IMG/VR virus record: IMGVR_UViG_3300024331_000122
Coordinates: 1-38,721 of that record
Origin: a virus
Lineage: Duplodnaviria > Caudoviricetes
Reading direction: 5' to 3' (one strand)
DNA length: 38,721 bases
The notes beneath the pieces were generated by a model. The model worked only from the letters and a program-made list of their open reading frames with translations. It did no database searches and was not told the DNA's origin. The position numbers and the translations under genes are program-made. Shown one piece after another: positions 5,381 to 34,402 of this stretch (the stretch's first letter is position 1; each line of letters starts with the position of its first letter).

Positions 5381-6006
5381 TGTTTCTCTCCTCCTCCAGT
5401 TGTGACTTCTCCCGCTTTCCACTCGTCCCCGTCCACCTCCACCGGCAACGCACTGCCCGGCGGTCCCAAATACTTCTTGTCGAGCAGATACTTGTGATCG
5501 AGCTTCTTTCTGCGGCCCGACAGGTACGACTGCGCGAGTTCGATGTTGCGCCCGTGTGTCACCAGCACTCGATGCCCGCCGCGGCGCTTCAACTCGTCCA
5601 GGTGCTTGTCGAGTTTCGGTAAAAACTTCTTCGCCCATGCATGAAACGATTCCCCACCTGGCGTGGCGACGTTCGGCTGCCGATGCGCCAGGTGTTTCAG
5701 AATCGGCATGACGTCGCGGACCTTCTGCCCTTCATGCGCGCCCGGATCCCACGTCCGCAGATCCCGGTCCGGATGAACTTGCGCGCCGGTGATGTGCGAA
5801 ATGATCTTCGCCGTCTCCGCCGCGTGCTGAAGGTCCGAGTGATAAATGGAATCGACGGGAAACTTCGAGAGGTGCGCGCCGATCCGCAAGGCTTGCTTCT
5901 GGCCCTTGTCCGTAAGCGGCAATTGCAGGTGACCGCGCACACGTTCACCATCCGCCTTGTTGAGCTCCGTAGCTCCGTGGCGGACTAACCAAAGTGTAGG
6001 TTTCAA
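5377..6006 (-). CDS. Histidine phosphatase (phosphoglycerate-mutase-like) family protein
   Basis: WLVRHGAT, YHSDL, PGGES and VLVTHG motifs. Confidence 0.92.
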   Translation of the reverse strand: MKPTLWLVRHGATELNKADGERVRGHLQLPLTDKGQKQALRIGAHLSKFPVDSIYHSDLQHAAETAKIISHITGAQVHPDRDLRTWDPGAHEGQKVRDVMPILKHLAHRQPNVATPGGESFHAWAKKFLPKLDKHLDELKRRGGHRVLVTHGRNIELAQSYLSGRRKKLDHKYLLDKKYLGPPGSALPVEVDGDEWKAGEVTTGGGEKQ

Positions 6007-14428: not shown

Positions 14429-14674
14429 CTAGCCGCCTTTCTTCGACGCCTTCAGTTCCAGCGTCTCCAGATCGATCTCCGCGCCCAGCTCCTGCTCCAG
14501 CCGCGCCTTCAGTTGCTGGAACGTGCTGCTCTTGCGACCCAGCTCCGCCGTCAGCGCCTCGCTCGCGCGCAGCAGATTCACCTCAGCGATCGCCACCTCG
14601 CGATGCGCCATCAGTAAATCGATCTTCTGCGCTTCCTTCAGCGCCTTCACTTCTTCCGGTTCGCGACGTTTCAC
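14429..14674 (-). CDS. Small coiled-coil protein, possible tail-fibre chaperone
   Basis: GGAGGG RBS before GTG 14674 overlapping the fibre stop; heptad-like sequence. Confidence 0.6.
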   Translation of the reverse strand: MKRREPEEVKALKEAQKIDLLMAHREVAIAEVNLLRASEALTAELGRKSSTFQQLKARLEQELGAEIDLETLELKASKKGG

Positions 14675-15825
14675 ATCACCCTCCACGCGCCATTGATGCG
14701 CTGCAAGAATGTTCCAGTGCCGGGATTCAACGGCACCGTGGCTGACGCGGCTGAACCTGCCGCCGCTCCGTCCGTGATGCTATTCGCGTTGGTGCAGTAG
14801 ATCAGGCTTCCGTTTGTCGCCGCCGGCAGATTGGCAAAGGCGCACCCTGCAAACAGAACTTCACCGGGGTTCGCTCCATTCGCCTTTAGCGTCATCAACG
14901 TCTGGTTCGCCCCGATCAGCGTCTGCTGGGTGTTTTTATTGAACAGAATCGCGTACGACCCAGAAGCGTCCTGCACCAGAATATTGCCCGTGCTGAAGCT
15001 CGAAATGCCGCCGCGAAACGTCCCTGGCGCAGCATCATTGCCGTAAAAGAACAAGGACCCCGTATTCGAGTTCGACGTCTCGACCCGCACAACTTCCGTT
15101 GCGCCGCCAGTGCCGTAGACGTGCAGCCTCGCCGCCGGAGTGCCGATACCGATCGACGCATTTCCTGACCCGTCGCTGTTGATCGCGCCCGTCAAGTTCC
15201 CACTGTAGTTGATGTCGCGCACCCACAGCTCCGCCCAGCGATCCACGCTCGTTCCCAGCCGCCACGTATTTGCCAGGCCCGCGATGACGTCTCCGTAAAA
15301 GACCCAGGAACGAGACGCGCCGCTGCCAAGAATCGCCGCCATCGGCACGCCGTGCTTATCGTCAACTTCCAGAATCTCCCCGCCGCCGCCGTTCATGAAT
15401 ATGCTCCACGAGTCGCCGGCGAACGTCGGATTCCATGCACTGCTGAACAGCGCCCGAAACGGCTTGGCTTGCGATCCAATGAACTGCACCGAAGCCGCAT
15501 CCGCCAAAATGTTCCCCGCAAACGTCTGGTCCGCGGACCACGTCTGCGCGACGCTCAATCCTCCCAGCGTCGTATCCGCATCGGGAAGCCCGTAGGTGCG
15601 CGTCGTCGCTGACGCGATCCCCGCGGCGCTGAACTTCGCTTTCTTGCTCGCGTCCGCCGCGTTCTTAATCAGCGGCGACGCATCGGAAAACGGGAGCAGC
15701 GAGTTGATCGCCTTCGTCGTCGCGTTGTGATAATCCGCCACGCGGCGCAGCGCGGCCGCCAGCACGGGATTCTGCTGCTGGATCGCCGGCAGCTCCGGCA
15801 GCGAGATTTGATTGATGCCCGCCAT
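14671..15825 (-). CDS. Tail fibre / tailspike
   Basis: Follows the tail tube gene; LGTSVDRWAELWV and GNASIGIGTPAARLHVYG are fibre-type motifs. Confidence 0.75.
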   Translation of the reverse strand: MAGINQISLPELPAIQQQNPVLAAALRRVADYHNATTKAINSLLPFSDASPLIKNAADASKKAKFSAAGIASATTRTYGLPDADTTLGGLSVAQTWSADQTFAGNILADAASVQFIGSQAKPFRALFSSAWNPTFAGDSWSIFMNGGGGEILEVDDKHGVPMAAILGSGASRSWVFYGDVIAGLANTWRLGTSVDRWAELWVRDINYSGNLTGAINSDGSGNASIGIGTPAARLHVYGTGGATEVVRVETSNSNTGSLFFYGNDAAPGTFRGGISSFSTGNILVQDASGSYAILFNKNTQQTLIGANQTLMTLKANGANPGEVLFAGCAFANLPAATNGSLIYCTNANSITDGAAAGSAASATVPLNPGTGTFLQRINGAWRVM

Positions 15826-20269: not shown

Positions 20270-21073
20270 TTACTTCACCTCCGCCACGAACGCGTCCAGG
20301 CCCTTCACGTAACGCCCCAGCACCAGCCGGCTCTCACAGCTGCCCGGCGACAGATGTAGAGTCCCGCTCAACATCGATCCCGCGAACGCGCCGGCGGGTG
20401 GCGGCGCTTCGCCCTCGAAGTAGTCCTGCGCTTGGTGGAAGATCGGAATCGCCGAGACAATCCCCGTCAGCACCGAGCTCGACACCTTGACCACTCCGCC
20501 GGCTCCGAGAACCGCGGCAAGACTCGCCGCTTCTTCCAGCCACTTCGCGGCGCGAACTTTCTTGTTGTGTCGCCGCGCCTCCTGCGTCGTTACATCGTTC
20601 AGCGCGGGATTGATCGTCGCGAATTTTCCCACCGCGGCTTGCGTCACAAACGCGGTCGCGATATCGATCGGCGCCGGCGCGGTCCGCGCCAGGCACACGT
20701 CGACGCTGTAGACGGCCACGCCCTTCACCTTGGATCCGAACGCAGCCTTGAACGCTTCCAGCGGCTGCGGACTAAACGACGCGGTCACCTGCCCGTGTGC
20801 CGGCGCAATCGCGAGCAACATCACCGCCACGAGCACAGCAAGTCCTCGACTCGCCTGGACGGCCTTCGCCACGTCACCAAGGTTTCCCGTCGCGCCCGCT
20901 TGCGTCACCATCACCGTATCCGGTGCGCCGGCATCCTTGGCGAACAGCCCGAGCAGCGACAACGCAACGCTGATGGCCACCTGCCGCGGCGCCGCGCCGT
21001 TCGCGTATAGATTCAGTGCGCCCACCAGCAACCCTGCGATGGTCGTACGATAGTGAGAAAAGAAGTCCTTCAC
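20270..21073 (-). CDS. Holin-like N-terminus fused to an exported domain
   Basis: YRTTIAGLLVG...LLGLFAKDA two-TM holin-like pattern, then signal-like AVLVAVMLLAIAPAHG/Q. Confidence 0.55.
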   Translation of the reverse strand: MKDFFSHYRTTIAGLLVGALNLYANGAAPRQVAISVALSLLGLFAKDAGAPDTVMVTQAGATGNLGDVAKAVQASRGLAVLVAVMLLAIAPAHGQVTASFSPQPLEAFKAAFGSKVKGVAVYSVDVCLARTAPAPIDIATAFVTQAAVGKFATINPALNDVTTQEARRHNKKVRAAKWLEEAASLAAVLGAGGVVKVSSSVLTGIVSAIPIFHQAQDYFEGEAPPPAGAFAGSMLSGTLHLSPGSCESRLVLGRYVKGLDAFVAEVK

Positions 21074-21099
21074 CGTTCACCTCCGTTTTGATTTACCCT

Positions 21100-21375
21100 C
21101 TACCGCCTCCGGCGCGCGTCCTCCAGGATCGTCGCCCGGATATCCCTCAAGTCGCTTCCGTTCTGCTTCAACTCCGACAGCACCCGCTCTGACAGCTGGC
21201 GAAACTCCTCACGCGTCACGCGGTCCTGCAGGTCGCGTTCGATGATAGACACCCGCGCATTCAGCGCGGCCACTGCAGTCGCCGCGCCGAGCGCCGAGCT
21301 GACCAGGATGGTGACGAGTTTCCCCGCGATCGGTCCATTCCCATTGCCGTTACCGAAGCCGTTTCCTTCAGCCAT
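21100..21375 (-). CDS. Single-TM + coiled-coil protein (holin/anti-holin-like)
   Basis: LVTILVSSALGAATAVAAL followed by a coiled coil and an RRRR end. Confidence 0.6.
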   Translation of the reverse strand: MAEGNGFGNGNGNGPIAGKLVTILVSSALGAATAVAALNARVSIIERDLQDRVTREEFRQLSERVLSELKQNGSDLRDIRATILEDARRRR

Positions 21376-22887
21376 TCAGCACGATCCTCCGGTGAGAATT
21401 CCATTCGTGTAAATCAACGTCCCACACGGCAGCGTGACAGTCTTGTTGATACCGACCGGCCCTGCCTCGACGATTCCGTTCTGTTGTACAAAGACCTTCC
21501 CCTCATCAGCTGCGCTAAGACCGCCGCCGAGACGAAGCTGATGTGGCTTGTTGCAGGAGATTCCGTATCCGAACAACTGGCAACCAGGCTGTTGCACACC
21601 AACCGAGAATGCGGAAAGTCCGTATCCAAACATGGCGTGGCCATCGGTCGTAAGAACCGCTCCGTTGCCAGATGCTCCACCGTTCGCCGTGTTGCCGCCA
21701 CCCACCAGCGTGCTTCGATTCGCGGTCGTGATGAACTTTCCCGCCACGCCACCGATCGCGACGACGCCGTACCCCGAGAACGATTTACCGTTGCCGGCGT
21801 TCGGTCCAAGGAAGTACGAGGCGTCCCAAAACGACTGAACACTGACGCAGCTTAGGCGATCCGTCCACCCGTTCGTGAACCACTGGCCGCTGGTAGTGTC
21901 ACACTGAGGAACCAAGCGACCAGTCAGGTCAGCATCCGCAACGTTGATCGTGTAGGAGGTCTGCGTGCTAGGCACGCACTCGATCACGTGCAGACGCACA
22001 TCGTCGTTCTCATTGACCTTGCTCATCGCGATGCACGTCTTGACCACGCGGCTACTTTTCGGTAGCGGATAAGAGACGGTTATTTGACCCGCCACGGTGT
22101 TGTCCGTGATGTTCGTTTGCAGAATCACCGAGGTGATCGTCTCGCCAGCCATCTCGAAAGAAAGCTGGTCGTCCGGTGTGTTCCGGATATCGTCTTCAGT
22201 CCGATAGAAAACGCCCACGGCATGATGGCCAACTGTGACGAGGCCCGGCCCTCCGAGACTAAGCGAGCACGGTCCTGCAAAACATGGAGGACTTACACCC
22301 GTGTTGTGCAGATTGCCCGTAAAGGGTATGTGGCGGAATTGAGAAGCAGAAGTACTCCAGGTGCTATAAGAATTGACCGATGGGTTGCCGGGGGTAAGGT
22401 CCATCACGTCTGACTTGAACGGCCCCACCTGCGCGCCTCCGCGCTGCTGCCCATAAAACCAGATTGTACAGACGCTGCCCTCAACGCAGTCTGGCTGCGT
22501 AACGCTACCGATCACGGCTTGGAATGCCGACACGTATGCAACTGACCCACCCTTTGTCGTGGCTGCCATACACAACCCGTTTGGAGACGAGATGACGAGG
22601 CTGCCGCGCTGCAACGGCACCGAAGGGTTTTGCTCGAACTGACAATCACAATACCCGGAGTAGCACACGCTGATGGGATGCGACGAGGTAGCTGCAGCCT
22701 GAGTGATCCCGAACACGACTGGGCTTTGATCCCCTAACAGCGGACGAACCCACAATCCCTCCGTGATCTTCACTGGGACGTGGGCGGCCACGCCCTCGTA
22801 CGGACTGACGGTCCCCACGAGCGTGCTGGTCTGACCGAAAGCGGCGACCGTTAGAACTAGAAAAACTAGTAGGCGAGGCATCCCCAT
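21376..22887 (-). CDS. Exported Cys-rich fibre-like protein
   Basis: Signal peptide ...LTVAAFG/Q; 16 Cys; fibre-like C-terminus GTLIYTNGILTG. Confidence 0.7.
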   Translation of the reverse strand: MGMPRLLVFLVLTVAAFGQTSTLVGTVSPYEGVAAHVPVKITEGLWVRPLLGDQSPVVFGITQAAATSSHPISVCYSGYCDCQFEQNPSVPLQRGSLVISSPNGLCMAATTKGGSVAYVSAFQAVIGSVTQPDCVEGSVCTIWFYGQQRGGAQVGPFKSDVMDLTPGNPSVNSYSTWSTSASQFRHIPFTGNLHNTGVSPPCFAGPCSLSLGGPGLVTVGHHAVGVFYRTEDDIRNTPDDQLSFEMAGETITSVILQTNITDNTVAGQITVSYPLPKSSRVVKTCIAMSKVNENDDVRLHVIECVPSTQTSYTINVADADLTGRLVPQCDTTSGQWFTNGWTDRLSCVSVQSFWDASYFLGPNAGNGKSFSGYGVVAIGGVAGKFITTANRSTLVGGGNTANGGASGNGAVLTTDGHAMFGYGLSAFSVGVQQPGCQLFGYGISCNKPHQLRLGGGLSAADEGKVFVQQNGIVEAGPVGINKTVTLPCGTLIYTNGILTGGSC

Positions 22888-23915
22888 TTGATCGTGTCTC
22901 CGTTTGCGGTAGAAGCATTGAGTGCAAATGTCGCAGTTGTGGTGTTACCGCCGTTTTGCCAGATCGGATTGGCAGCCGTCGTAGTGATGTTGCCAGCCCA
23001 GCAGGACCATCCATTTGGTGCAGTCAATCCTGTAGCCCCGTTGAGTGTCACAGTCGCGGTGCATGCACCAGCGGCTCCAGTATTGAAAGAACCAGCCGTC
23101 GCTCCACCGACCGTCGTACCTGCTGAACATCCAGACACGGTGAATTTCGTGCCGCCCGACATATAGCCTGCGGCGCGCAGATCGCCGCTGGTGTCTGCGC
23201 TCCCGGTTCCCACCGCGATGTGCTTGGAAGCGGGGGACACTTCCGAAAACCCTACACCGATGGTTCCACCCGACGCGCCACCTGCATCAGAAAATCCCAG
23301 GAACAAGGTACGATCTACGATAAAACCGCCTGTTGTGGTGGCTGCCCGTTGCGCGCCTGCCGTGGCCGCCGTGAGAATATCGGTGCTAGCCATATACAAG
23401 CCGCGCCCTGTATTGATACCCATCTGCAACCCGGCGTTGTTCACCGTTCCTGCGTTCGTCAGTACGGACATCGCGCTGCCGTTGTAAACCATCGCGCTTC
23501 CCATTGGCTGCGCGTTGCTACCGTCCCAAACGAAATACTGTGACGTGGTGTACGATGCCTGCGCGGTGATCGTGGTGACGTTCGAGAACCCAGTCGGCCA
23601 CACGTGGGTACGATTGCCGGCACCATCTTGCGTAATAACGAAGCCAAGCTGTTGCCCGGCACCGCATCCGCTCAACGTCGACGACGTGACGTTACCTGTC
23701 AGAGTGATCGTGAACAGCGTAGGGGCCGTGGTCTGCGTACACGCATAGGTAGGTGTCGCTGAGAACGTCACGGCGATCACGGAAGGTGCTGATCCAGAGC
23801 TAATCGTTGTTACAGGACTGCCTCTCTGCGCACTGGAATACGGGTTGACAACGTTCCAATAGCACACCAGCCAGAAGACCAGAAAACCGGTAAGCCATTT
23901 CGTTGAGGTTTTCAT
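22866..23915 (-). CDS. Exported fibre-like protein
   Basis: ATG 23915 (ATGA overlap); MKTSTKWLTGFLVFWLV...YSSA/Q; TITLTGNVT...ITQDGAGNRT..WP fibre-type domain. Confidence 0.7.
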   Translation of the reverse strand: MKTSTKWLTGFLVFWLVCYWNVVNPYSSAQRGSPVTTISSGSAPSVIAVTFSATPTYACTQTTAPTLFTITLTGNVTSSTLSGCGAGQQLGFVITQDGAGNRTHVWPTGFSNVTTITAQASYTTSQYFVWDGSNAQPMGSAMVYNGSAMSVLTNAGTVNNAGLQMGINTGRGLYMASTDILTAATAGAQRAATTTGGFIVDRTLFLGFSDAGGASGGTIGVGFSEVSPASKHIAVGTGSADTSGDLRAAGYMSGGTKFTVSGCSAGTTVGGATAGSFNTGAAGACTATVTLNGATGLTAPNGWSCWAGNITTTAANPIWQNGGNTTTATFALNASTANGDTIKWGCLAY

Positions 23916-24721
23916 TTTGTGGTCACCTGAAAGATGCCAACCGCACCGGCAACCGCTTTTGTGAAAGGAGTTGTCGTCGCCGTGGAAAACCAGCACGATA
24001 ACCCCGTCGAGAATTGGATCGGACCTTGCCCCCAACCTGCATTATTTGGAGCTGCGCCCAGCGCAAAAGTAACAATAGGCGTCACAGCGCCATCAACAGG
24101 TACAGTGAGCGAATCCGCGCACTGCACAAGAAGATTGGCGGCCGACGTGTTGTTGATCGCCACGACGTCATACAGGTTCCCCGCGCCGGTGACGATGGCC
24201 GCGTGCGACGCTTCCAGCGCCGCCGACTTGTAATAGGTCTTAGCGATCGTAGAGGAAGACGATGGCACGACGTTGACCGAGACAGTCCCCGCAATGCTCA
24301 CGTTCGATCCCGGATCCACGGACGGAAAACAGGAGCTAAGCACCACGGTCGGGCTCGCGCCGCCATTCAGCGTCGTCAGTTCAACAAACCAGAACTTAAA
24401 CGCGCCCTTCGCCGTGATCGCGTCTCCGGACTGCGTTCCAGACGTGTTCGTGAACGCACCCCACTTCACCAGCGGCTCCGTCCCTGTCGGCGGATTATGA
24501 TTCGATGCCGTGATGCGCACCGATACGTTCGCCGGCGTTCCCGTCGTGTTATACGTCGCGCTGAGGGAAACCAGCCCCGAGCCAGGTGGCTGGAACAAAA
24601 CGCGCCGCGTACCGACGTCCGCCGTGGTCAAGGTAACGTCCGGAATGCAACCCGGACCCGTGCCCACCTGCGCGATCGCCGGCGCCGCACTGATCAGCAA
24701 CAGCAGCAACCCGCGCTTCAC
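23912..24721 (-). CDS. Exported decoration/spike-like protein
   Basis: GTG 24721 (GTGA overlap); MKRGLLLLLISAAPAIA/Q; two Thr/Ser-rich beta domains. Confidence 0.7.
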   Translation of the reverse strand: MKRGLLLLLISAAPAIAQVGTGPGCIPDVTLTTADVGTRRVLFQPPGSGLVSLSATYNTTGTPANVSVRITASNHNPPTGTEPLVKWGAFTNTSGTQSGDAITAKGAFKFWFVELTTLNGGASPTVVLSSCFPSVDPGSNVSIAGTVSVNVVPSSSSTIAKTYYKSAALEASHAAIVTGAGNLYDVVAINNTSAANLLVQCADSLTVPVDGAVTPIVTFALGAAPNNAGWGQGPIQFSTGLSCWFSTATTTPFTKAVAGAVGIFQVTTK

Positions 24722-25527
24722 TTCTTCACCGCCTTCTTCACGCCCGCCGCAGCCGCGTCGATATCGCCCGACACCAGCTGCTTCTGGCAGAACCGGCAAA
24801 TCAGCGCTGACGGTTTGATCCACTCCGCGCAGTACGGACACTCCACGCGATCGTCTGCCTGCGCTTCCGCTTGGCCCTTCTGATGTGCCACAGCGCCGGC
24901 CGTTCCACCCGTCATTCCGCCCTTCGAATCGAGGATGTCATGCAGCTTCAGGCCAAACTCCTCGGCCCACGCCATCTCCGCCTGCGCGTAGAAGGGACGT
25001 CCGCCCGGCTGGCCGCTGACGCCTTTGCGATACTCGAGCTCCGCCTGAGAAATCACCCAGGCCGCCCATTGCTTGCGCTGCGCCTGCGCCGTGAGGATCT
25101 CGCCTTGCGTCGGCTGCTCGCCCGCGATCCGGACCACGCCGTAACGTCCCCACTTCCGCGCCAGGTCATCGGCGCGTTCGTGGCCCAGGATCACGCGATC
25201 GAGCCACTGCGTCGTAGGCGTTTGCCCCGCGGCCTGATCCTGCGCGTTCGGATCCGGCTCGCGAAACCGCAGATCTTCGATGATCAACATCGAGTAGCCG
25301 TCGAGCTTGCCGCCCGGCATCACAATAAACGCTCCGGACGTCTTGGCCGTCTTTCCGAATCGCTCCTTGACAGCCTCCGGCGTCAGGTGCTCGCCATTGT
25401 TCGGCTGCAGCCAGGTCTGCCCAATCGGCGGCATCATGTACTCGCGGCCGTTTTCGTAGTCGCGCGCCGTGCAAGGCGGACACGTCAAAGGATTGTCGCT
25501 GCCCACGTAAATCAAACGTCCTTCCAT
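24718..25527 (-). CDS. Hypothetical protein with C-terminal zinc ribbon
   Basis: CPYCAEWIKPSALICRFC; GGAGG RBS. Confidence 0.75.
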   Translation of the reverse strand: MEGRLIYVGSDNPLTCPPCTARDYENGREYMMPPIGQTWLQPNNGEHLTPEAVKERFGKTAKTSGAFIVMPGGKLDGYSMLIIEDLRFREPDPNAQDQAAGQTPTTQWLDRVILGHERADDLARKWGRYGVVRIAGEQPTQGEILTAQAQRKQWAAWVISQAELEYRKGVSGQPGGRPFYAQAEMAWAEEFGLKLHDILDSKGGMTGGTAGAVAHQKGQAEAQADDRVECPYCAEWIKPSALICRFCQKQLVSGDIDAAAAGVKKAVKK

Positions 25528-25536
25528 TGCTTCCTC

Positions 25537-26355
25537 CTATTGCACTTCTTGCCGGTTTAAGCCTGCCTTGTTCAAACCAGGATCCGTCGTCGCCATCGAT
25601 CCGATGTCGCGCGTCTTCCCGCCGGCGCCGGAATGTGGATTGAGCCAGTACGGCCCCATCGCTTCCTGCGCCATCTCTTCATACAAGTCGTGACGCTCGG
25701 CCAGCCTCTGCAGCATCCGATTGCACTTCGCCAGCCAGGCTGTCTTTCTTCCCGCTTCCGTAGCGTAGAGATCCACGGATGCGCGATACTTCAGGATCTG
25801 CCGCTCGACCATCCGCGGTGTCATCGGCGGCGCTTCGAACGGAATCAGCCGCCGCAACACCTCCGACTGACGCATCAGCCACGTGAACCGATGAAAGAAG
25901 GGAACGGGGAATCCCGGCCCAAACTCCACCGCCTCGTAATCGCCACGCACCGGAATGTTCTGGAACTGTTGAATCGTGATTGGCAATCCGTGTTCGTGCC
26001 ACTTCACCGCGCGATCACCGCGGCCCTGCGCTTCGTACCACTCCGCCGGCCGCCACGCTTCTAAGACCCAGCCGTCTTCCATCCCCTCGGGCATTTCATA
26101 CTTCAACTGCGCAATCTCGCCCGTGAAGTGGTCCACTACTTTGCCCTCGCCGTCGAGCTGCTCCACGTCCATGAAGCCGGCAATCTCAAATCGCGACTTA
26201 GCCCACACCATGCGAAAATGCGGCTCGCCCCAAAAGTTGCGGCCGCCCGCTCGCAAGCACGCGTTTTGAATGAGAGGATCCGCCAGCACCAGAAACCGCT
26301 CGGGCGATCGCGCAGCAGTCAGCACGATCTCGCCGCTCGGCAATTGCAAGTACAT
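25537..26355 (-). CDS. Hypothetical protein downstream of capsid
   Basis: 272-aa ORF with GGAGG RBS. Confidence 0.75.
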   Translation of the reverse strand: MYLQLPSGEIVLTAARSPERFLVLADPLIQNACLRAGGRNFWGEPHFRMVWAKSRFEIAGFMDVEQLDGEGKVVDHFTGEIAQLKYEMPEGMEDGWVLEAWRPAEWYEAQGRGDRAVKWHEHGLPITIQQFQNIPVRGDYEAVEFGPGFPVPFFHRFTWLMRQSEVLRRLIPFEAPPMTPRMVERQILKYRASVDLYATEAGRKTAWLAKCNRMLQRLAERHDLYEEMAQEAMGPYWLNPHSGAGGKTRDIGSMATTDPGLNKAGLNRQEVQ

Positions 26356-26364
26356 CGATCCTCC

Positions 26365-26405
26365 AAAGGAAAAGGCCCCGCGGCAAGGAGTAAACCCGCG
26401 GGGCC
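26365..26405 (-). terminator. Intrinsic terminator after the major capsid gene
   Basis: 10-bp GC stem GGCCCCGCGG/CCGCGGGGCC followed by TTTTCCTTT on the minus strand. Confidence 0.75.
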
Positions 26406-26436
26406 CCTCTTCAACTACGGCGAACCGTAGAAGCTC

Positions 26437-27732
26437 TTACGCTCCGACGTAACCGGCGATCACCGCCAGGTTCTTGACGATGCCCATCTCGGTCACATCC
26501 GTGCAGTACAGCTGGCTCTGCTCGGTGAGTGCGAACCACACCTGCGCGATCGGTGCGCCGTTGGCGCCGACAATCGGCCACATGATGTCGGACCCCTCGC
26601 CCATCGGCTGGTGGAAGCCGATCGACTTCATCTGCGCCCATCCGAACTTGCCGCGCTGCAGCCACTGCAGCTTGGTCGGATCCGCGTTCGTCTCGCACAT
26701 CGCCTTACGGCCGGCCATGCGCAGATTGTTGAACAGCAGATCCGTGTCATCTTCGGGACCGCCCTTGATGATCTCGGTGACCGCAAAGGCCAGCTGCTCG
26801 TACGCGTGCTCCTGTTGCGGCGCGATGTACGGCGTCAGCGTCTTCATCGACGCCCCCGGCTTGCGGATCTTGATCAGGTTGAGCGACTGGCGGATGAAGT
26901 CCAGCGACAACGCGGCGCCGCCGGCATCGACGGAGCGCACCTGGCAGTACGGCAAGTTGCGCGGCTGCCCCTGCAGGAATCCGGTCGCGGAATCGTTCAC
27001 GAACGTCGGCAACCCGGCGAAGCCCGCCTGGCCGCTGCCCGCCGTCACGATCTTGTCTCCGATCACCGCACCCGGAATCGCTTGCGTGAACGTGACGTTC
27101 TGGCCCGGATAATCCACGCCGGCATCCTGCACCACCGCGGCGCCCGCCTGGCGGAGAACCGCAAGGCCGGTGTCCCACACGTCGTACAGTCCGTTATCCT
27201 CGAGCAGCTGCGCGCCCCAAGGATTTCCGGCCTGTCCCGTCGCGCCGCCCTTCACGCTATACGTCGGCGCGTTCACCACCGTGTTCAGGATCGCCAGCAC
27301 CTGCGACGCGTCCACCTGCAGCCGCCGGTCCTTCGCCGCCTTCATCTCGATCATCGCTTGCGCGATCTCGTGACGGGACAAACGTTCCAGCGCCTTCTGA
27401 TCGCCCTTGCAGGCTTCGATGGCCTTGGTGGTCATTTCCCGCGCGTGCTGGAAACCCACCGTGGTCACCGTGAACTGTTTGAACAGCGTGCCGGTGCCGC
27501 GGAAGAACGATCCGCCGTTCAGGTCCACCTGGCCCGATACGCCGCCGCGGCCCGCCTTGAAGACGATGCGCATCGCGCGATCGGAGACTTTCTGGATCTC
27601 GATGCCGGCGCCACTCTTGCCCGGCTGGATCCACGTACAGAACGCATCCTCCACGCCCCACAGCGTGGGCATGTCGGGGAGCACGCGTTCCAAAAACATC
27701 GCTTGCACCTGTGCTACGTTGGCTACACCCAT
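26437..27732 (-). CDS. Major capsid protein (HK97 fold expected)
   Basis: 431 aa, directly after the scaffold, AAGGA RBS, strong codon bias, downstream terminator. Confidence 0.85.
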   Translation of the reverse strand: MGVANVAQVQAMFLERVLPDMPTLWGVEDAFCTWIQPGKSGAGIEIQKVSDRAMRIVFKAGRGGVSGQVDLNGGSFFRGTGTLFKQFTVTTVGFQHAREMTTKAIEACKGDQKALERLSRHEIAQAMIEMKAAKDRRLQVDASQVLAILNTVVNAPTYSVKGGATGQAGNPWGAQLLEDNGLYDVWDTGLAVLRQAGAAVVQDAGVDYPGQNVTFTQAIPGAVIGDKIVTAGSGQAGFAGLPTFVNDSATGFLQGQPRNLPYCQVRSVDAGGAALSLDFIRQSLNLIKIRKPGASMKTLTPYIAPQQEHAYEQLAFAVTEIIKGGPEDDTDLLFNNLRMAGRKAMCETNADPTKLQWLQRGKFGWAQMKSIGFHQPMGEGSDIMWPIVGANGAPIAQVWFALTEQSQLYCTDVTEMGIVKNLAVIAGYVGA

Positions 27733-27758
27733 CGTCGTTTCCTTCTGCCCTTAAAGGG

Positions 27759-29039
27759 CTATGAAGCAGCCAGCATTTGTTCGTTCGCGTAGTTGTAAAG
27801 AGCCTCGCCGCGATGTCCCAGCTTCGCGCCTTCGTTCAGCAACTGCGCCATCGTCTTCTTGCCTTGCAACTCGCCCGATGGTGTGCCGCCCGATGGCTCG
27901 ACCCGCTTTTGCGCATCCGCTTCTCTTTGGCGCTTGGCCTCTTCCTGCTTCATCACCTGCAGGCCAAACTCCTGAAAAACTTTCTGCGCTGCTTTCTCCA
28001 GCGTGCCGTTCGCTGATGCTCGGTTCGTATACGCCGCCACCAGCGCCGCGCGATGATCATCCGAGTAATTGCCGCGCGCGCCCTGCCACAATGCCTTCTC
28101 GCGCTCGGCAAACACTTTGTCCTTCCGGATCTCGTCGCGGACAGCCTGTAGCACCGCTTGTTCCACGCGCCCCTTCAACTCCTCGGTCGCAAATGCAAAC
28201 TTGCTCATGAGAGGGTCCAGTTTCGCCTTCATCGCCGTCCCCAGTTCGGTCCTCACACCGCCCTGGAACGTTTGAAAGGTCCGCTGTTCGAGGGCTTGCT
28301 CACGTTCTGCAAGCGCCTTCTCCCGCGGATCCTCCTGCCGCGATTCGGCACGGGTAGTCGCACGCGGCGCGGTCTGCTGCACCAGCGTTTCGAGCTGCGC
28401 CGCCAGATCTTCCTGGCCGGCCTCTCGCAACGCCGTCGCGGCCTTGCTGATCGCCGGAGCGTAGATCGTGTTGTGCAGCCCCGAGTGCGCCGCCGTTAAC
28501 ACCTGATCCCACTTGTCCGGAAATGCCTGGCCCCACAACCGCGCGAATCCAACAGGATCGTTCTGCATCTGCTCGCGCCATTCCTGCGCGTGCTGTGCCT
28601 GCTGGACTACAAATTGAGCGTCTTCCGGTGTAGTGCCCACCAAGGCCGTGAGAGCTTCGTACGCCGGTTTCAGCGTCTCCAGCTCCTTCGACTTTCCGAA
28701 GATCTCTTTCCACCGCGGATGATCACGAAACTCCGCCGGCGCTTCCGGATCCTGTCCCTCCGCAACTTTCGACGCGTCTTCCTGCGTCTGTTGCTGCTGA
28801 GTTTCAGTCCCCGCTTCGGTCCTCTTGGTTGCGTCTGCTACCGTCTCCGTCCCAGGCTGTCCGCCTTCCTGGGTAGTTCCGGACTCGTCCGCCTTGTTAA
28901 TAAAGGCGTCGTACGGAGAAACGTATGCTGCTGTCGAAGATGCCGACGTTTGGGTTGACGACTCCCGGGCCGTGTCGACCGTGCCTGCTGCTGCGCCCGT
29001 GCTTGGCGCTGGCGTTGCCGCCACTGTTTCTACTGCCAT
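27759..29039 (-). CDS. Scaffolding protein
   Basis: Acidic/T-rich disordered N-terminus, long coiled coils, between portal and capsid. Confidence 0.8.
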   Translation of the reverse strand: MAVETVAATPAPSTGAAAGTVDTARESSTQTSASSTAAYVSPYDAFINKADESGTTQEGGQPGTETVADATKRTEAGTETQQQQTQEDASKVAEGQDPEAPAEFRDHPRWKEIFGKSKELETLKPAYEALTALVGTTPEDAQFVVQQAQHAQEWREQMQNDPVGFARLWGQAFPDKWDQVLTAAHSGLHNTIYAPAISKAATALREAGQEDLAAQLETLVQQTAPRATTRAESRQEDPREKALAEREQALEQRTFQTFQGGVRTELGTAMKAKLDPLMSKFAFATEELKGRVEQAVLQAVRDEIRKDKVFAEREKALWQGARGNYSDDHRAALVAAYTNRASANGTLEKAAQKVFQEFGLQVMKQEEAKRQREADAQKRVEPSGGTPSGELQGKKTMAQLLNEGAKLGHRGEALYNYANEQMLAAS

Positions 29040-29061
29040 CTGTTGCTCTCCTTAACCACAA

Positions 29062-31539
29062 CTACAAAACTTGCTGCGCTAACTCCGGACCCGGCGCCGA
29101 TCCCGCAACGGCAGCCATCGCTGCCACGTGCGCTTGATGATCGACGGCTTTCTTGCCGGCGTGCTCCTGCACCTGCGCCTTCGCATGCGCGTCTTCCTTC
29201 GCCGCGTTCACCGCAATCTTCGGCTGGACCTTTCCTTGCTCCGCCGCCACGTCGCGCTGCACATGCGCCTGCACCGTCTGCTGCAATTGCTGCTGCTGCG
29301 CTTGTTGCTGTTGCTGCTGCAACGCGTTCTGCGCCGCGCGCCCGTAAAGGATCACGTTCTGGTAGCCCTGCTGCGTTGCGGGATTCGAGGCGGCCGCCTG
29401 GCCCTGCGGCGAGCGCGCCCACTCCTTCACCACCTGCGCCACCATCCCAAGATCGTCCAGGTATGAATCCGGCTGACGGCTCGCCGCGGGCTGCCCACCC
29501 TGCGGATCCGGCTGCGGTACTTCCTTCAGCAGCTCCTGAATCGTGATGAGCACCGCATTGCGTTCATCGCGGCCTGGCACGCTGAGGTCCGGAATCGCAA
29601 ACAACTCCGCCAGCAGCTCGAGGTTCATCGGATCGGCCATCCACTGTTGAATCGCGGGATTCGCCGTGCCCATCAGCATCTCGATCGCCTTGCGCCGCGC
29701 GTCGATCGTCGTCGGGATCGTGTCCGTTGCTTCGGCGTATGCGCTTACGCTGCCCTGTGCGGACGCCATCTTGATCGTCTTCACCTGGTAGTCCACGTCG
29801 CGTCGACCCGCCGGTACCGGAAAGCTGATCTGATCCTCGGTGCGAAAGCGCACGAACTCTTTCACGCGCAATAAATCCATCTGCGCCCAGAACCGTTTCG
29901 CCTGCTGGTAGGGAATACCCAACCGCTGCAGCGCCTGGCTGCGCGCTTGCGATTGACCGCTCGCCGTCTTGATGTTCACATCCGTCGCGCCGGCCAGCAC
30001 CGGCTCCGCACCGGTCAGCATCGGCGCCAGGCTCGTCGCCATCGACAGCGTCTTATCCACCGCGGCCGAACTTTCTTTCACTTCGATCTGCAGCACGTTG
30101 CCGGCAATGCTTTCGCCCGGATCCAGGTGGATCGGCGTGTACTGTGCCGGCCGCATCCGCTTGTTGATCGCCTCTTCGGAGATCTTGTTCGACTTGTAAA
30201 ACACCGGAGCGAACGCCGCGTACTCCTGCGCCTCCGCATGCAGGTTGATCCCCGTGTTCGCCAGATCGTTGATGTCCAGATACGACTCACACAGCGCCGG
30301 CGTGAACATTCCATCTCCCGTCGTCGCGTGACACAGATCCAGGTGCTCGTCCATGCGCTCATTCGTCGCATCGACAAACGTATCGCCGTACATCTCCACC
30401 CGCACGCCGTCCGGAAACATCTCCTGCAACCGCTGCACGATTGTCTTGCCGCCTTCGCTCTCGCGCTTGTCGAGCAACGTGTAATAGCGCTCGGGACGCA
30501 GCCACCAGCGACCGTATGTCACCATCGACTGGAAGCCTTGCCGCGCCGCGCCGCCGTCAATCTGGCCGCGCGACGGTGAATCGGCAGGCGTATTCGACAT
30601 CTCTCGAGCCCGGAATCCGTAGCCGTCGCCTTCCAGCGTTCCGTAGCCAGGCACGATCTTCTCCGCCAGCTCCGGATGCGCCGCGCGTGCCGACGATACT
30701 TCCACCTCGATCTCGATGCCCACCCAGGGGCATTCCTTGAGCGTGCAGCAGTATGCCGGCAGCCGAGTTTCCAAGATGCCGAAGAGGTCCAGTTTCTCGG
30801 TCCCCTTCGGCACCTTGCGCGTGCCCAACGTAACCGGCATCGACGCGGTGATGGCCGGCTTCATCGTGTCGGGAGTCAAAGGCTCGCCGCACTCAGGACA
30901 CACGCCGAAGAGATTGCTCTGCTCCGTCGAAAACGCCCCGCAGGATTTGCACTCGTAACCCGCAGGCCGCAACTCTGCGTCTTGCATCGCCACGTTCGGC
31001 TGTTCATCGAAACCGTAACGCTGCCCGTCGCGCAAGTGACGCGCGTATCCGAGCACCACGCCATCCGTGCACAACAGCCAGTTCAAGCGCACCCACGATT
31101 GCAAGTCCTCACCCGACTGCGCGCGGTAAATGAACTCGCGGATGTCCGCGGCGCAGCGGCTGGTGCTGACGTCTTGCGGATTGTTCGGATCGACGGGAAG
31201 AAAAGCGGTCGGTGGTACGCCGTTGGCAGCCAGCGCCGCAATGATCACCATCACCGTCGCTTGATACATATTCAGCACAAACTCGAACCGCGGATCCTCG
31301 TCTTCATCGCCGCCCTTCACTTGCTGTGTTACCGGCGACGTCGCCACCCACGCGTTCTGAGACTCCGAAAACCAGCCGTAATGAAGGCCCTTCCAATAGG
31401 CTCGCCCGCGCGCCGCTTTCCGGATCGCCCGCCGGTAGTCCATCATCGACTCCTGCGAGATCTGCTCCACGATCGACTTCAACGCCCGCTGGATGTCTTC
31501 CGGAACTTTGCTGCCCGCGGCCTTTTGTTCCTCGGCCAT
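29062..31539 (-). CDS. Portal protein (podovirus type) with Zn-ribbon insertion
   Basis: 825 aa; YWKGLHY...FVLNMY N-terminal pattern, KTASGQ motif, Q-rich C-terminal barrel; CKSC...CPEC insertion. Confidence 0.88.
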   Translation of the reverse strand: MAEEQKAAGSKVPEDIQRALKSIVEQISQESMMDYRRAIRKAARGRAYWKGLHYGWFSESQNAWVATSPVTQQVKGGDEDEDPRFEFVLNMYQATVMVIIAALAANGVPPTAFLPVDPNNPQDVSTSRCAADIREFIYRAQSGEDLQSWVRLNWLLCTDGVVLGYARHLRDGQRYGFDEQPNVAMQDAELRPAGYECKSCGAFSTEQSNLFGVCPECGEPLTPDTMKPAITASMPVTLGTRKVPKGTEKLDLFGILETRLPAYCCTLKECPWVGIEIEVEVSSARAAHPELAEKIVPGYGTLEGDGYGFRAREMSNTPADSPSRGQIDGGAARQGFQSMVTYGRWWLRPERYYTLLDKRESEGGKTIVQRLQEMFPDGVRVEMYGDTFVDATNERMDEHLDLCHATTGDGMFTPALCESYLDINDLANTGINLHAEAQEYAAFAPVFYKSNKISEEAINKRMRPAQYTPIHLDPGESIAGNVLQIEVKESSAAVDKTLSMATSLAPMLTGAEPVLAGATDVNIKTASGQSQARSQALQRLGIPYQQAKRFWAQMDLLRVKEFVRFRTEDQISFPVPAGRRDVDYQVKTIKMASAQGSVSAYAEATDTIPTTIDARRKAIEMLMGTANPAIQQWMADPMNLELLAELFAIPDLSVPGRDERNAVLITIQELLKEVPQPDPQGGQPAASRQPDSYLDDLGMVAQVVKEWARSPQGQAAASNPATQQGYQNVILYGRAAQNALQQQQQQAQQQQLQQTVQAHVQRDVAAEQGKVQPKIAVNAAKEDAHAKAQVQEHAGKKAVDHQAHVAAMAAVAGSAPGPELAQQVL

Positions 31540-31863
31540 CTATCCCCGCACCCGCGACTTGTCCTGGATCATCACCGCCGTCTGGTGGTCCAGCTCCTCC
31601 AGCTGCCGGCGACGCTCGTGAATGCTGAGGCGCTTGCGCTCCCGCAGGCGATTCGCCCGCAGCACTGGCGCCTCTTCGTTGAGGAAGCGATTGACGGCAC
31701 CCGTAACAGGCTCACGCTCTGTTGGCACTTCCGATGTGCCATCCGCCGCGGCCGTCAGCTCTCGCCATTCCTCACGCACTGCTGCGCGTACTTCCAGGCG
31801 GATCGCGGCGATCACGTCCCGGAAGTACGCATCGAGCCAGGTGCGCAGCAGTCGAGTGACCAC
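31540..31863 (-). CDS. Hypothetical protein
   Basis: 107-aa ORF abutting the portal start. Confidence 0.65.
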   Translation of the reverse strand: MVTRLLRTWLDAYFRDVIAAIRLEVRAAVREEWRELTAAADGTSEVPTEREPVTGAVNRFLNEEAPVLRANRLRERKRLSIHERRRQLEELDHQTAVMIQDKSRVRG

Positions 31864-31865
31864 GG

Positions 31866-32906
31866 TTAGAGAACCTCCAGCACCGGGAACACTTGATACG
31901 TCGGATTCGGCGAGCAGGATCCGTTCGGCGTATACGTCGCCTGATACTGAACCGCCACCGACGCCTTCGAGCGAAAGGTAACCACCTCGCGGCCGGACGT
32001 CCAGGGGATGTTGCCGATCGTTCCGTTCGTGGTGATCGTGTACAACGCCGAGTTGACCGTTTGCGTGCCGGCCGCGTTCGGATCCTGATACACCAGCGCC
32101 AGCTGGATCGTGTCATTGCCGGCGCACGATGCGCCCACCACCGTCTGCGTCACATACGCCGAGAAGCGATAGGTGGTGGCGACGGCCGGCGTAACCATCG
32201 TCGTCGCGGAAATGGTGGCCGTCGTCGCCGCGGATGCCGTGTTATAGACTTCCGAACTCGTTCCGTTTCCCACCACCGTCAACCCGCCCACCTTGACCGG
32301 CGTGAAGCTGGGACCGATTGCGTACTGCAGCGTCCCCGCCGAATTGAAAATGTTCAGCACGTTATCCGTGGGGGTCGCGGCCGCGAACAACGTCATCGGC
32401 GCCACCCCGGGATCCGCGCTCTGGTAAATGTGGCTGACGACGTCCGCCGTATTCAGATATCCGGTGTAGCTCCACGCTACGCTGCCGCTGCCGGTCATCG
32501 CCGTAGGATTCAAGCGCAACGCGTTGACCGCCGGGCCCACCCACTTGTATGTGCCGGCGGACGTGCAGGTCTGCGCAGCGACCGCCGCGGCTCCGGAAAA
32601 ACCCGTCTGCAATGCGAACGTACCGCCGAGGCCTCCCGCCGATTCCGGCTGAATCGTGCAGGTGGACACCGTTCCCGATGGCACCCAGCTCAAGACGTGA
32701 TAACCGATCCCCAGGCCTTGCTGGATCATCGCCCCGCCATTGGCTTGCGTGCCAGGTGTAACCGTGGTCGACGTGATCAACCCCGTCATGGTCACCGTGG
32801 GCTGATACTGCGCCAGGACTTTCGACGGCTGGTGCCACGCCACATAACCGATCAGCGCCACCGCGCTCAACAACAGCAATGAAAATGCTTTTCTCACGTT
32901 CTTCAC
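31866..32906 (-). CDS. Exported Thr/Ala-rich beta protein, virion-decoration-like
   Basis: Signal MKNVRKAFSLLLLSAVALIG...KVLA/Q; 4 Cys; GTGA-coupled to terL. Confidence 0.75.
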   Translation of the reverse strand: MKNVRKAFSLLLLSAVALIGYVAWHQPSKVLAQYQPTVTMTGLITSTTVTPGTQANGGAMIQQGLGIGYHVLSWVPSGTVSTCTIQPESAGGLGGTFALQTGFSGAAAVAAQTCTSAGTYKWVGPAVNALRLNPTAMTGSGSVAWSYTGYLNTADVVSHIYQSADPGVAPMTLFAAATPTDNVLNIFNSAGTLQYAIGPSFTPVKVGGLTVVGNGTSSEVYNTASAATTATISATTMVTPAVATTYRFSAYVTQTVVGASCAGNDTIQLALVYQDPNAAGTQTVNSALYTITTNGTIGNIPWTSGREVVTFRSKASVAVQYQATYTPNGSCSPNPTYQVFPVLEVL

Positions 32907-34402
32907 CTCCAGGTGTGTACTTTGGCTTTCGCGCGATTTAGCGCATCGAACCGGCGATGCATCATCGCCAGTGTGTTCAGGTCCACGTCCGGCTTCTCAC
33001 TCTTCACTTCCGCCACTTTCGCTTCCCACTCCCGCTCCGCCGGCATCTCGCCCGGCGCCAGATACGACTTCAGCCCGTAACGTGCGCAGTCCCCCGGATC
33101 GTCCCCGTCGCGCTTCGCCACGTCTTCCACTTTCTTTTCGTCGCGCGTCAACGTCGGCAAACACTCGATCAGTTTCGGACACGCGCTCGAGATCCACCAG
33201 GTCTGCCGTTCGAGCATCGTGTACATCAGCCGCCAGCCGCCGATGCGCTCGTCATCCGCCTTGATCGGTAAGGGCAGGGAAGTGCCGATGCGATCCTCCG
33301 GATCCTTCAAGCGATCGGCCTTCACCGCGGCCGCGATCACCTCGCCCATCTCCTGCGCGATCGTCTTTTGCGATGCCCGCTTCTTCGACGGCCCGAACGC
33401 ATCCCACGAAAGAAAAAACGCGTCGATCTGCTCGCCGCCGGACCGCGCCACAATCTCCGCCGCGATCGTCGGCTCGCTCAAATGATTGGTGGAGTACTCG
33501 CGATAGGTGTACACTCGCCCATCCGGCGCCCGCGTGTGCCAGTGAATGCAGAACGGATGCTCGAATCCCCAGTCCATCGAGATCCACTTCGGCCACCACT
33601 TCTCGATGCCGATCAACTCCGCGCGGATCACATTGCGCTGCTCGCTGAACAGATCGAAGTATTGCCCCGCAAACTCGTCCCACGATCCCTCGGCGTATGC
33701 CTTGCGCATCTTCGCCGGCAGCGTGGCCAGGTTGTCCGCGTAATACGTCTTCGGCAGGTGGGGATTGTCGGACGACTTCGCCGGAATGAACGCAAACTCA
33801 TGCTCGCGGCCGGCCAGCTCCGCCGGCATCTGCAGCAGGATAAACAGCGCCTTCACCCAAGCGTGTCCGATGCCGCCCGGATTTGCGCCCGCCGCAAAGG
33901 GAAACACGAAGCCTTCCGGGAATCCCACCCAGCGCAACCGCTTGCGCAGTTCGTCAAACACCTTCTTGGGATTCTTGGTCAGCTCCTCGACGCCGATCGC
34001 CGCGAACTCCGAAGAGTCGTACTTGCCCGGATCGTCCAGGTTGCGCAGCAGGATCATGCCGCCGCCCAGGTCCGGAGACAGTTTGAAGCGCAGGCCTTCG
34101 GCCTTGGTTTCTTTCAGCGATCCCAGCCAGCGCGGGAACTCTTTATCGATTTTGGAAATCTGCCGGTCCTTCAGCGTCGGGTAATCTTCACAGAACAGAC
34201 CCACCTGCACGCCGCGCAGCCCGTAGACCCGATACGCCGCGATCAGGAAAACCACCAGCCACCAGCGCAGGATGTAGGATTTACCGCCGCCCGCGGCGCC
34301 GCCAAACAGCGTAAAGCGATGCGTCTTGACCGCCTCAAGGAACTCCCGCTGCTTCGGGCTAGGATTCACCAGCTCCGACAGCTTGAAGTTTCTCGCGCTC
34401 AT
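32903..34402 (-). CDS. terL: Terminase large subunit
   Basis: Walker A GGAAGGGKS, Walker B AIGVEE, GANPGG coupling motif, nuclease SMDWG and DDPGDCARY. Confidence 0.96.
   Translation of the reverse strand: MSARNFKLSELVNPSPKQREFLEAVKTHRFTLFGGAAGGGKSYILRWWLVVFLIAAYRVYGLRGVQVGLFCEDYPTLKDRQISKIDKEFPRWLGSLKETKAEGLRFKLSPDLGGGMILLRNLDDPGKYDSSEFAAIGVEELTKNPKKVFDELRKRLRWVGFPEGFVFPFAAGANPGGIGHAWVKALFILLQMPAELAGREHEFAFIPAKSSDNPHLPKTYYADNLATLPAKMRKAYAEGSWDEFAGQYFDLFSEQRNVIRAELIGIEKWWPKWISMDWGFEHPFCIHWHTRAPDGRVYTYREYSTNHLSEPTIAAEIVARSGGEQIDAFFLSWDAFGPSKKRASQKTIAQEMGEVIAAAVKADRLKDPEDRIGTSLPLPIKADDERIGGWRLMYTMLERQTWWISSACPKLIECLPTLTRDEKKVEDVAKRDGDDPGDCARYGLKSYLAPGEMPAEREWEAKVAEVKSEKPDVDLNTLAMMHRRFDALNRAKAKVHTWR

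What the first reader, a model, noticed from the sequence alone, without database searches (positions are those of the whole stretch)
20270..32906. Virion-type proteins with Sec signal peptides, +1 Gln and even Cys counts: possible periplasm-matured phage decorations
Seen: five late-operon genes have predicted cleavage sites AFG/Q (22887), SSA/Q (23915), AIA/Q (24721), VLA/Q (32906) and internal AHG/Q (21073 gene). Their mature regions have 16, 6, 4, 4 and 2 Cys. Four are Thr/Ser/Gly-rich beta proteins, some with fibre- or spike-like motifs, coupled into the head/tail operon. Established: tailed phages assemble in the reducing cytoplasm and their structural proteins normally lack signal peptides; +1 Gln allows pyroglutamate capping. 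Inference: these are exported, disulfide-bonded in the periplasm and added to virions at lysis, or they remodel the infected cell surface.
Basis: partly seen in the sequence, partly recalled or inferred. Interest (0 to 1): 0.82.

Follow-up and report, generated by a model that had tools for sequence, protein, structure and literature searches.

The report
Phage coat parts exported before assembly
A soil phage, likely of Acidobacteria, puts export-signal-like leaders and even numbers of cysteines on four proteins coded among its head and tail genes, so these likely fold outside the cytoplasm and would be clipped onto the virus particle only when the cell bursts, a route I found described for no tailed phage.

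Summary
Observation confirmed. Four late genes of this podovirus-like phage (32906, 24721, 23915, 22887) have Sec-type leaders, +1 Gln and 4, 4, 6 and 16 mature Cys. It is a clade trait: 42 such proteins in 17 genomes, 41 with even Cys, against 0 of 83 core virion genes with leaders.

The same domains also occur without leaders, and then lose their Cys pairs. In the 24721 C-domain family, 60/60 leader-bearing members have even Cys and 47/57 leaderless ones have 0-1. In clade family F1, 114/122 keep the pair against 2/23.

Folds are jelly-roll or cement-like. In cultured Cellulophaga phages phi10:1 and phi19:1, eight leader-bearing proteins are annotated as structural by MS/MS.

Best reading (0.65): exported, disulfide-folded appendages that dock on virions at lysis. 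Virion binding is not shown for this phage.

Two corrections. +1 Gln is largely a host habit. The 21073 gene looks like a holin-type lysis fusion, not a decoration.

This scan reported the same pattern in 17 other genomes. My literature searches found no description of the route.

The parts
31866..32906 (-). SP1: 346-aa predicted exported beta-rich protein directly after the large terminase; leader to VLA/Q33; 4 mature Cys; no homolog found
   Evidence: Nearest Atlas feature clusters are viral but score below 0.9, so a lead only. It occupies the terminase-portal interval where relatives carry family F1, but no homology to F1 was detected.
23912..24721 (-). SP2: 269-aa predicted exported protein, two predicted jelly-roll domains, one Cys pair per domain; leader to AIA/Q18
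   Evidence: AF2 model pLDDT 74; folds; N-domain homolog with leader in the same slot of G001; C-domain family of 206 hits with and without leaders.
22866..23915 (-). SP3: 349-aa predicted exported fibre-like mosaic; atypical leader to SSA/Q30; 6 mature Cys; GC3 0.62
   Evidence: Its N- and C-modules recur in leader-bearing F1 and F2 proteins with the Cys kept (P0142, P0071, P0135, G005_43099). GC3.
21376..22887 (-). SP4: 503-aa predicted exported protein; leader to AFG/Q19; N-domain (res 17-157) predicted cement-like; 16 Cys; GC3 0.66
   Evidence: The Atlas model aligns to Phage_cement_2 (PF09956) cluster models, TM 0.83 and 0.80 by target, but under the Atlas bar for naming a family. No sequence homolog of the N-domain among 276-881-aa proteins.
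21100..21375 (-). 91-aa protein with one hydrophobic helix plus coiled coil; probable lysis-module membrane protein (inferred)
   Evidence: Sequence only; no family hit.
20270..21073 (-). 267-aa holin-like fusion: N-terminal holin-like segment, linker, internal signal-like helix (about 20792-20848) ending AHG/Q95, and a predicted periplasmic domain with Cys127-Cys246
   Evidence: N-terminus matches a 46-aa holin-like gene of G003. The C-part, the internal leader, +1 Q and both Cys are conserved in G001_11655, which lies in the lysis cassette after an endolysin-like gene.
32903..34402 (-). Large terminase (context)
   Evidence: phrog_2
26437..31539 (-). Portal, scaffold and major capsid genes (context; no leaders; roles inferred from size, order and conservation)
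14671..15825 (-). 384-aa fibre-like tail gene without a leader (context: this phage keeps a cytoplasmic fibre candidate)

Best explanation
The four beta-rich late proteins are likely capsid decorations and fibres that the host Sec machinery exports and disulfide-folds in the periplasm, and that would dock on the cytoplasm-built particle only when lysis mixes the two compartments. Shown: leaders, coupling into the head/tail operon, even Cys, co-variation of leader and Cys pair in homologs. Predicted: jelly-roll and cement-like folds; cleavage by signal peptidase I. Inferred: oxidation by host DsbA/VKOR, optional pyroglutamate capping, docking at lysis, and a role in adhesion or particle stability. 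The fifth gene (21073) likely belongs to lysis: a holin-like membrane part that delivers a disulfide-bonded domain to the periplasm.
For: (1) Clade census: 42 leader-bearing T/S/G-rich proteins of 200 aa or more in 17 genomes, 41 with even Cys; 0 of 83 core genes have leaders. (2) SP2 C-domain family, 117 of the 120 listed hits (206 found): 60/60 leader-bearing members have an even mature Cys count; leaderless ones have 0 (13), 1 (34) or 2 (10). (3) Clade family F1, 145 of the top 150 (642 found): Cys pair in 114/122 with leader and 2/23 without; leader state changes at least 10 times on the tree. (4) The six best VIA rows for the F1 model (pLDDT 91) are all phage virion jelly-rolls: 8gtc_S Z 9.9, Pam1 7eel_H 8.9, GP4 8h89_J 8.0, BPP-1 3j4u_H 7.6, Carin1 8cjz_B 7.5, KHP40 cement 7dou_4 7.5; rmsd 3.3-5.1 over 99-124 residues. 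SP3 shares modules with F1 proteins. The SP4 N-domain is cement-like. (5) The SP2 C-domain lies in 58 viral loci, 38 with a leader. In 7 of 10 scanned neighbourhoods it sits beside terminase, portal or capsid genes, 4 with leader and 3 without. (6) phi10:1 gp091-094 and phi19:1 gp101-104 carry leaders and GenBank notes 'structural protein, experimental MS/MS'. (7) Genomes holding related prophage loci encode DsbA-like proteins (5/5) and VKOR (4/5).
Against: No virion, proteome or transcript data exist for this phage. After allowing for kinship, the leader-Cys link is only suggestive: 5-6 supported independent pairs, none discordant, median p 0.06-0.125 for F1, and 2 uninformative pairs for SP2C. 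The SP2 model matches generic jelly-rolls with no standout; best Z is 8.3, and the list includes the non-virion PBSX protein XepA. The cement matches for F1 are at Z 7.5-9.9, near the tool's background of 7-8, and F1 is not encoded in this window. SP1 and SP4 have no sequence homologs, so their Cys pairing is untested. Virions can hold disulfides without any leader being reported (crAss001, PMC10172136 passages). The Cellulophaga proteins are Cys-poor and unrelated in sequence, and MS/MS of a phage preparation can include co-purifying secreted protein; I could not read the methods. Hydrophobic N-terminal leaders also occur on presumably cytoplasmic scaffolds in this clade, and my heuristic flagged some of them.
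Confidence: 0.65

Rival explanations
1. The proteins are exported but never join the virion. Virion-derived folds were re-used as periplasmic or surface factors of the infected cell or lysate (receptor masking, decoys against competing phage or host defences, matrix release, or XepA-like lysis helpers).
For: Leaders topologically separate them from assembly. The only two-domain VIA match of SP2 is XepA (Z 8.2, 186 aligned, rmsd 22). Lysis-like genes adjoin SP4. The phage is temperate (integrase). Bartlau et al. suggest phage lyases may aid progeny escape (PMC8776804 passages).
Against: The genes are embedded and coupled in the head/tail operon rather than in moron-like units. The same domains alternate between leader and leaderless forms in the same operon slots. 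In several relatives the large fibre-like genes after the ejection genes all carry leaders (G003, G017, G021). MS/MS structural notes exist for leader-bearing proteins of two cultured phages.
Confidence: 0.2
2. The leaders are membrane tethers or alternative starts: the virion copy is made or held on the cytoplasmic side, and disulfides form by air oxidation after lysis.
For: The SP3 and SP1 leaders are long, and SP3's is atypical. Scaffolds of relatives carry hydrophobic leaders. crAss001 virions have disulfides.
Against: Most leaders have the canonical basic/hydrophobic/A-x-A shape followed by Gln (79 of 112 F1 leaders by the heuristic), as host secreted proteins do. Cys pairs vanish when leaders vanish, which air oxidation does not predict.
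Confidence: 0.1
3. The exported proteins coat membrane vesicles or an outer-membrane-derived layer that carries or shelters virions, rather than binding the capsid directly.
For: Inference only: it would resolve the topology problem without post-lysis docking.
Against: No lipobox or membrane anchor in the mature SP1-SP4; cement-like folds imply direct capsid binding.
Confidence: 0.05

Closest known systems
Capsid cement/decoration proteins of tailed phages (BPP-1 3j4u, Pam1 7eel, Carin1 8cjz, KHP40 7dou; Phage_cement_2 PF09956)
   Same: Jelly-roll or cement-like predicted folds and genes in the head operon. Decorations binding already formed capsids is recalled knowledge.
   Different: The known ones are made in the cytoplasm without leaders (recalled). 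Here they carry Sec-type leaders and Cys pairs and are fused to further modules. Binding to capsid was not shown.
Cellulophaga phages phi10:1 gp091-094 and phi19:1 gp101-104 (GenBank KC821618, KC821607)
   Same: Late tail-region proteins with Sec-type leaders, mostly +1 Gln, annotated structural by MS/MS. The phi17:2 homolog of gp093 has no leader. PMC8776804 notes signal peptides on the related lyases (passages).
   Different: Bacteroidota host, Cys-poor, lyase-type domains; no sequence relation to this window was tested or seen. The passages I saw do not propose export followed by virion docking.
Filamentous phage coat proteins pIII/pVIII (recalled)
   Same: Virion proteins with Sec leaders; pIII is disulfide-folded in the periplasm.
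   Different: Inoviruses assemble at the membrane during extrusion and do not lyse the cell. Here a cytoplasmic HK97-type head would have to meet its parts at lysis.
Bacteroidetes Q-rule (PMC5837995, passages)
   Same: Gln at +1 after signal peptidase I cleavage, cyclisable to pyroglutamate.
   Different: The paper has no mention of Acidobacteria. The host rate here was 15 of 48 by a crude heuristic, and a plant-type cyclase was found in 2 of 5 incomplete genomes.
PBSX XepA (6i56)
   Same: Two tandem jelly-roll domains, phage late product.
   Different: The match is tied with unrelated jelly-rolls and has rmsd 22. XepA's lack of a Sec leader and its lysis role are recalled, not checked.

Membership tests
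Sec/SPI substrates | Basic n-region, hydrophobic h-region, small residues at -3/-1 | tested here: met
   SP1, SP2 and SP4 meet it by sequence and heuristic; SP3 meets it with an atypical h- and c-region.
Sec/SPI substrates | SignalP 6 call or experimental cleavage and export | not testable with these tools
   No SignalP and no experiment available.
Sec/SPI substrates | Leader kept in homologs and linked to oxidising-compartment features | tested here: met
   Leader and Cys pair co-occur in the SP2C and F1 families. The kinship-corrected test is underpowered.
Capsid cement/decoration proteins | Cement-type fold | tested here: inconclusive
   SP4-N: TM 0.83 to Phage_cement_2 models but under the naming bar. 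SP2: generic jelly-roll, BPP-1 cement at Z 7.2 among ties. F1 of relatives: top six rows are phage virion jelly-rolls.
Capsid cement/decoration proteins | Gene in the head/tail operon | tested here: met
   Window and unrelated phages.
Capsid cement/decoration proteins | Sequence membership of a Pfam or PHROG decoration family | tested here: not met
   No hit above cut-off for the whole proteins or their domains.
Capsid cement/decoration proteins | Binds capsid; present on virions | not tested
   The complex prediction could not be run because the queue was full; no virions exist for this phage.
Q-rule / pyroglutamate substrates | Gln at +1 | tested here: met
   5 of 5 in the window; 79 of 112 in F1.
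Q-rule / pyroglutamate substrates | Host glutaminyl cyclase | tested here: inconclusive
   PF05096 in 2 of 5 incomplete genomes holding related loci; the animal-type enzyme was not searched; the true host is unknown.
Holin/antiholin or spanin (gene 21073) | Small N-terminal membrane segment like holins, gene in a lysis cassette | tested here: inconclusive
   Weak match to a 46-aa holin-like gene; the G001 homolog follows an endolysin-like gene; no Pfam or PHROG hit; the first two helices fall below the 19-residue hydrophobicity threshold.
Holin/antiholin or spanin (gene 21073) | Lipobox of o- or u-spanins | tested here: not met
   No lipoprotein Cys after the leader; +1 is Gln.

The most novel reading that the evidence does not exclude
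Many tailed phages of diderm soil and water bacteria build their particles in two compartments. Heads and tail cores form in the cytoplasm, while decorations and fibres are Sec-exported, disulfide-folded and stored in the periplasm, then snap on during lysis. Single domains switch between the two routes repeatedly by gaining or losing a leader together with a Cys pair.
Probability: 0.6. Interest if true: 0.9.

Novelty: categorically new. Interest (0 to 1): 0.8.

Why it matters
It would overturn the rule that tailed-phage particles are finished in the cytoplasm. It would explain how large, disulfide-rich fibres fold, and it would make lysis a step of assembly. It also means that phage genes with signal peptides, now annotated as morons or secreted factors, may be host-recognition parts. 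The idea is directly testable in cultured Cellulophaga phages. Natural leader-bearing and leaderless versions of one domain give built-in controls.

Tried and rejected
Family and sequence searches that found nothing:
- Pfam and PHROG gave no family for the five proteins or their domains.
- PDB sequence searches were empty or at chance level.
- The window capsid protein alone found no relatives in viral contigs or GenBank phages.
- The SP4 N-domain found only itself among 276-881-aa proteins; other lengths were not searched.
- SP3 in metagenome contigs found only this contig. The 21073 C-domain found no further viral loci.
- tblastn of SP3-N and P0003 against cultured phages gave only weak hypothetical-protein hits.

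Ideas rejected:
- SP1 or SP2 N-domains as homologs of the small leaderless protein beside the terminase in relatives: weak HMM hints did not beat shuffles in hhalign.
- Window proteins as F1 or F2 domain members: no profile match.
- +1 Gln as virion-specific: it is common in the host secretome.
- A Bacteroidota host inferred from the Q-rule: relatives lie in Acidobacteriota-labelled contigs.

Not informative or not available:
- Sequencing runs: no RNA holder listed.
- The capsid + SP2C complex prediction was never run because the queue was full.
- The Holmfeldt 2013 proteomics paper is not held, so its methods and supplements, which bear on the MS/MS notes, were not seen.

Novelty searches listed no paper on exported virion parts of tailed phages. 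I saw listings and abstract starts, plus passages of PMC13001222 (spanin signal only). The library lacks most subscription papers.
Full report
Setting. The window is a 38.7-kb virus record, 77% complete. It has an integrase and a minus-strand late operon: small and large terminase, portal, scaffold, capsid, adaptor- and nozzle-like genes, three Cys-free ejection-like genes and an M15 endolysin. Portal, scaffold, capsid and tail roles are inferred from size, order and conservation, since no library names them. A terminase search gave 22 viral relatives, 15 of which share the capsid protein. Of 59 genome-collection loci, 13 lie in records titled Acidobacteria or a member taxon. Six of the 9 loci with this capsid family are among them, including 4-Mb and 823-kb contigs. 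The host is therefore likely Acidobacteriota (inference).

Observation. I had no SignalP and used a crude heuristic. It flagged 4 of 45 window genes plus SP3 on its coupled start. SP3 and SP4 have lower GC3 (0.62, 0.66) than most core genes (0.73-0.86), as variable cassettes often do.

It is a clade trait. In the window and 22 relatives, after removing duplicates, there are 42 leader-bearing T/S/G-rich proteins of 200 aa or more in 17 genomes. Of these, 41 have an even, non-zero mature Cys count and 38 have +1 Gln; the cut was placed before a Gln where one existed, so the Gln figure is biased. One of the 42 is an opposite-strand gene of G006. None of 83 core virion genes carries a leader. The proteins fill two main slots: between terminase and portal (family F1), and after the ejection genes (fibre-like, up to 1549 aa and 44 Cys, several sharing the N-domain F2). 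Terminase relatives outside this capsid family mostly lack them.

Natural experiment 1, a window protein. The SP2 C-domain has 206 hits, of which 120 were listed. I dropped two fragments and the window's own copy and set a few leader calls by hand. Of the remaining 117, 60 have leaders and all 60 have 2, 4, 6 or 8 mature Cys. The 57 leaderless ones have 0 (13), 1 (34) or 2 (10). SP2 uses a different pair of positions from most of the family, shared with two other leader-bearing members. The domain lies in 58 viral loci, some near-duplicates. In 38 of them it carries a leader, and 37 of those have even Cys. Ten neighbourhoods were scanned. Seven have terminase, portal or capsid genes beside it (4 with leader, 3 without), one has head-closure and tail genes, and two lie between ejection-like genes and an endolysin. 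These are unrelated capsid families, so the trait is not confined to this clade.

Natural experiment 2, family F1 (not in the window, but SP3 shares modules with F1 members). There are 642 clusters, and I examined the top 150. Of 12 ambiguous rows, 4 were set leaderless, 3 leader-bearing and 5 dropped. Even Cys: 113 of 122 with leader; 12 even, 9 odd and 2 zero among 23 without. The conserved pair is in 114 of 122 against 2 of 23. Leader state changes 10-12 times on the trees. With the Cys columns removed, only 5-6 independent pairs are supported, none discordant, median p 0.0625 and 0.125. For SP2C there are 2 supported pairs, which is uninformative. The association is strong by count and only suggestive after allowing for kinship.

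Folds. The F1 model (pLDDT 91) has a small beta-barrel and a jelly-roll. Its six best VIA rows are phage virion jelly-rolls, five of them capsid entries (Z 7.5-9.9), and Foldseek agrees on Pam1 and R4C with probability 1.0 but E above 0.001. SP2 (pLDDT 74) is two jelly-rolls with no standout match: best Z 8.3, XepA 8.2, BPP-1 cement 7.2. Its best predicted-structure matches are uncharacterised phage proteins. The Atlas model of SP4 aligns residues 17-157 to Phage_cement_2 cluster models at TM 0.83 and 0.80 by target, under the bar for naming. SP1 gave only a feature lead to viral clusters. SP1, SP3 and SP4 were not folded by me.

Cultured precedent. gp091-094 have clear leaders with Gln after the likely cut and GenBank notes of MS/MS detection as structural proteins. 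phi19:1 gp101-104 are the same, with three of the four followed by Gln. Homologs in phi19:3 and phi46:3 have leaders but are annotated only by similarity, and the phi17:2 homolog has none. The source paper is not held, so the purity of those preparations is unknown to me. PMC8776804 (passages) mentions signal peptides on related lyases and treats such enzymes as tail parts or escape aids.

Host machinery and Gln. Five genomes holding related loci encode DsbA-like proteins (5/5), VKOR (4/5) and a plant-type glutaminyl cyclase (2/5; all are incomplete). In 400 kb of one of them, Gln is the commonest +1 residue (15 of 48 predicted secreted proteins, a set that includes some false calls). Cys parity there is near chance, 24 even and 18 odd. 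So +1 Gln is partly host habit, whereas the parity of the phage proteins is far stricter than the host's. The Q-rule paper does not cover Acidobacteria (PMC5837995 passages).

The fifth gene. 21073 is not T/S/G-rich. It starts with a holin-like segment and has an internal signal-like helix, then a domain whose Gln, leader and two Cys are conserved in G001. There it is fused to a different holin-like segment inside the lysis cassette. I read it as a lysis protein delivering a periplasmic domain; this is inference.

Mechanism and verdict. My estimates: export with disulfide formation about 0.9; virion association about 0.7; the full route with docking at lysis 0.65. Against it stand the lack of virion data for this phage, generic folds, weak kinship-corrected statistics, disulfides in crAss001 where no signal peptide is mentioned (PMC10172136 passages), and hydrophobic leaders on scaffolds of relatives. 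Eight literature searches found no description of such a route in tailed phages. This scan has 17 earlier, unreviewed findings of the same kind in other genomes; they are not independent support.

Noticed in passing
Gene before the capsid gene in G005, G006, G009, G010/G012, G016, G017, G019, G020, G021; also G022 and the capsid gene of G019 (L052:15750-17069): The scaffold proteins start with a conserved hydrophobic, Phe-rich leader ending near 'FAA'; the window, G001, G003 and G013 lack it. It recalls the Prp-cleaved leaders of staphylococcal phage scaffolds (recalled, untested) or could tether procapsids to the membrane.
   Followed up: partly
window 20270-21073 and L024:11655-12509: Two different holin-like N-termini are fused to the same internal signal peptide plus disulfide-bonded domain, which has a hydrophobic hairpin in the middle; a candidate new spanin- or antiholin-like lysis part.
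   Followed up: partly
Beside the large terminase in about 29 relatives, e.g. L065:11747-12115, L081:4355-4759: A conserved 110-160-aa leaderless, Cys-poor beta protein of no known family; no member was detected in the window or G001.
   Followed up: partly
window 6003-11594: The 1863-aa ejection-like protein holds a ParB-like segment (res 317-630, phrog_21 and phrog_1033 matches) and has no Cys.
   Followed up: no
window 5377-6006: A histidine phosphatase (PF00300) sits between the last ejection gene and the endolysin; homologs lie between terminase and portal in G003, G004 and G008.
   Followed up: no
window 29062-31539: The portal-like protein carries a zinc-ribbon insertion (res 195-221) and 11 Cys.
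   Followed up: no
L205, L241, L200, L213 and other loci: Podovirus-like phages of unrelated capsid families carry runs of 3-6 leader-bearing, even-Cys genes in head or fibre regions, so the trait is not limited to this clade.
   Followed up: partly
L244-L263 (G023): Gln is the commonest residue after predicted signal peptides in this Acidobacteriota genome, hinting at a Q-rule outside Bacteroidota.
   Followed up: partly
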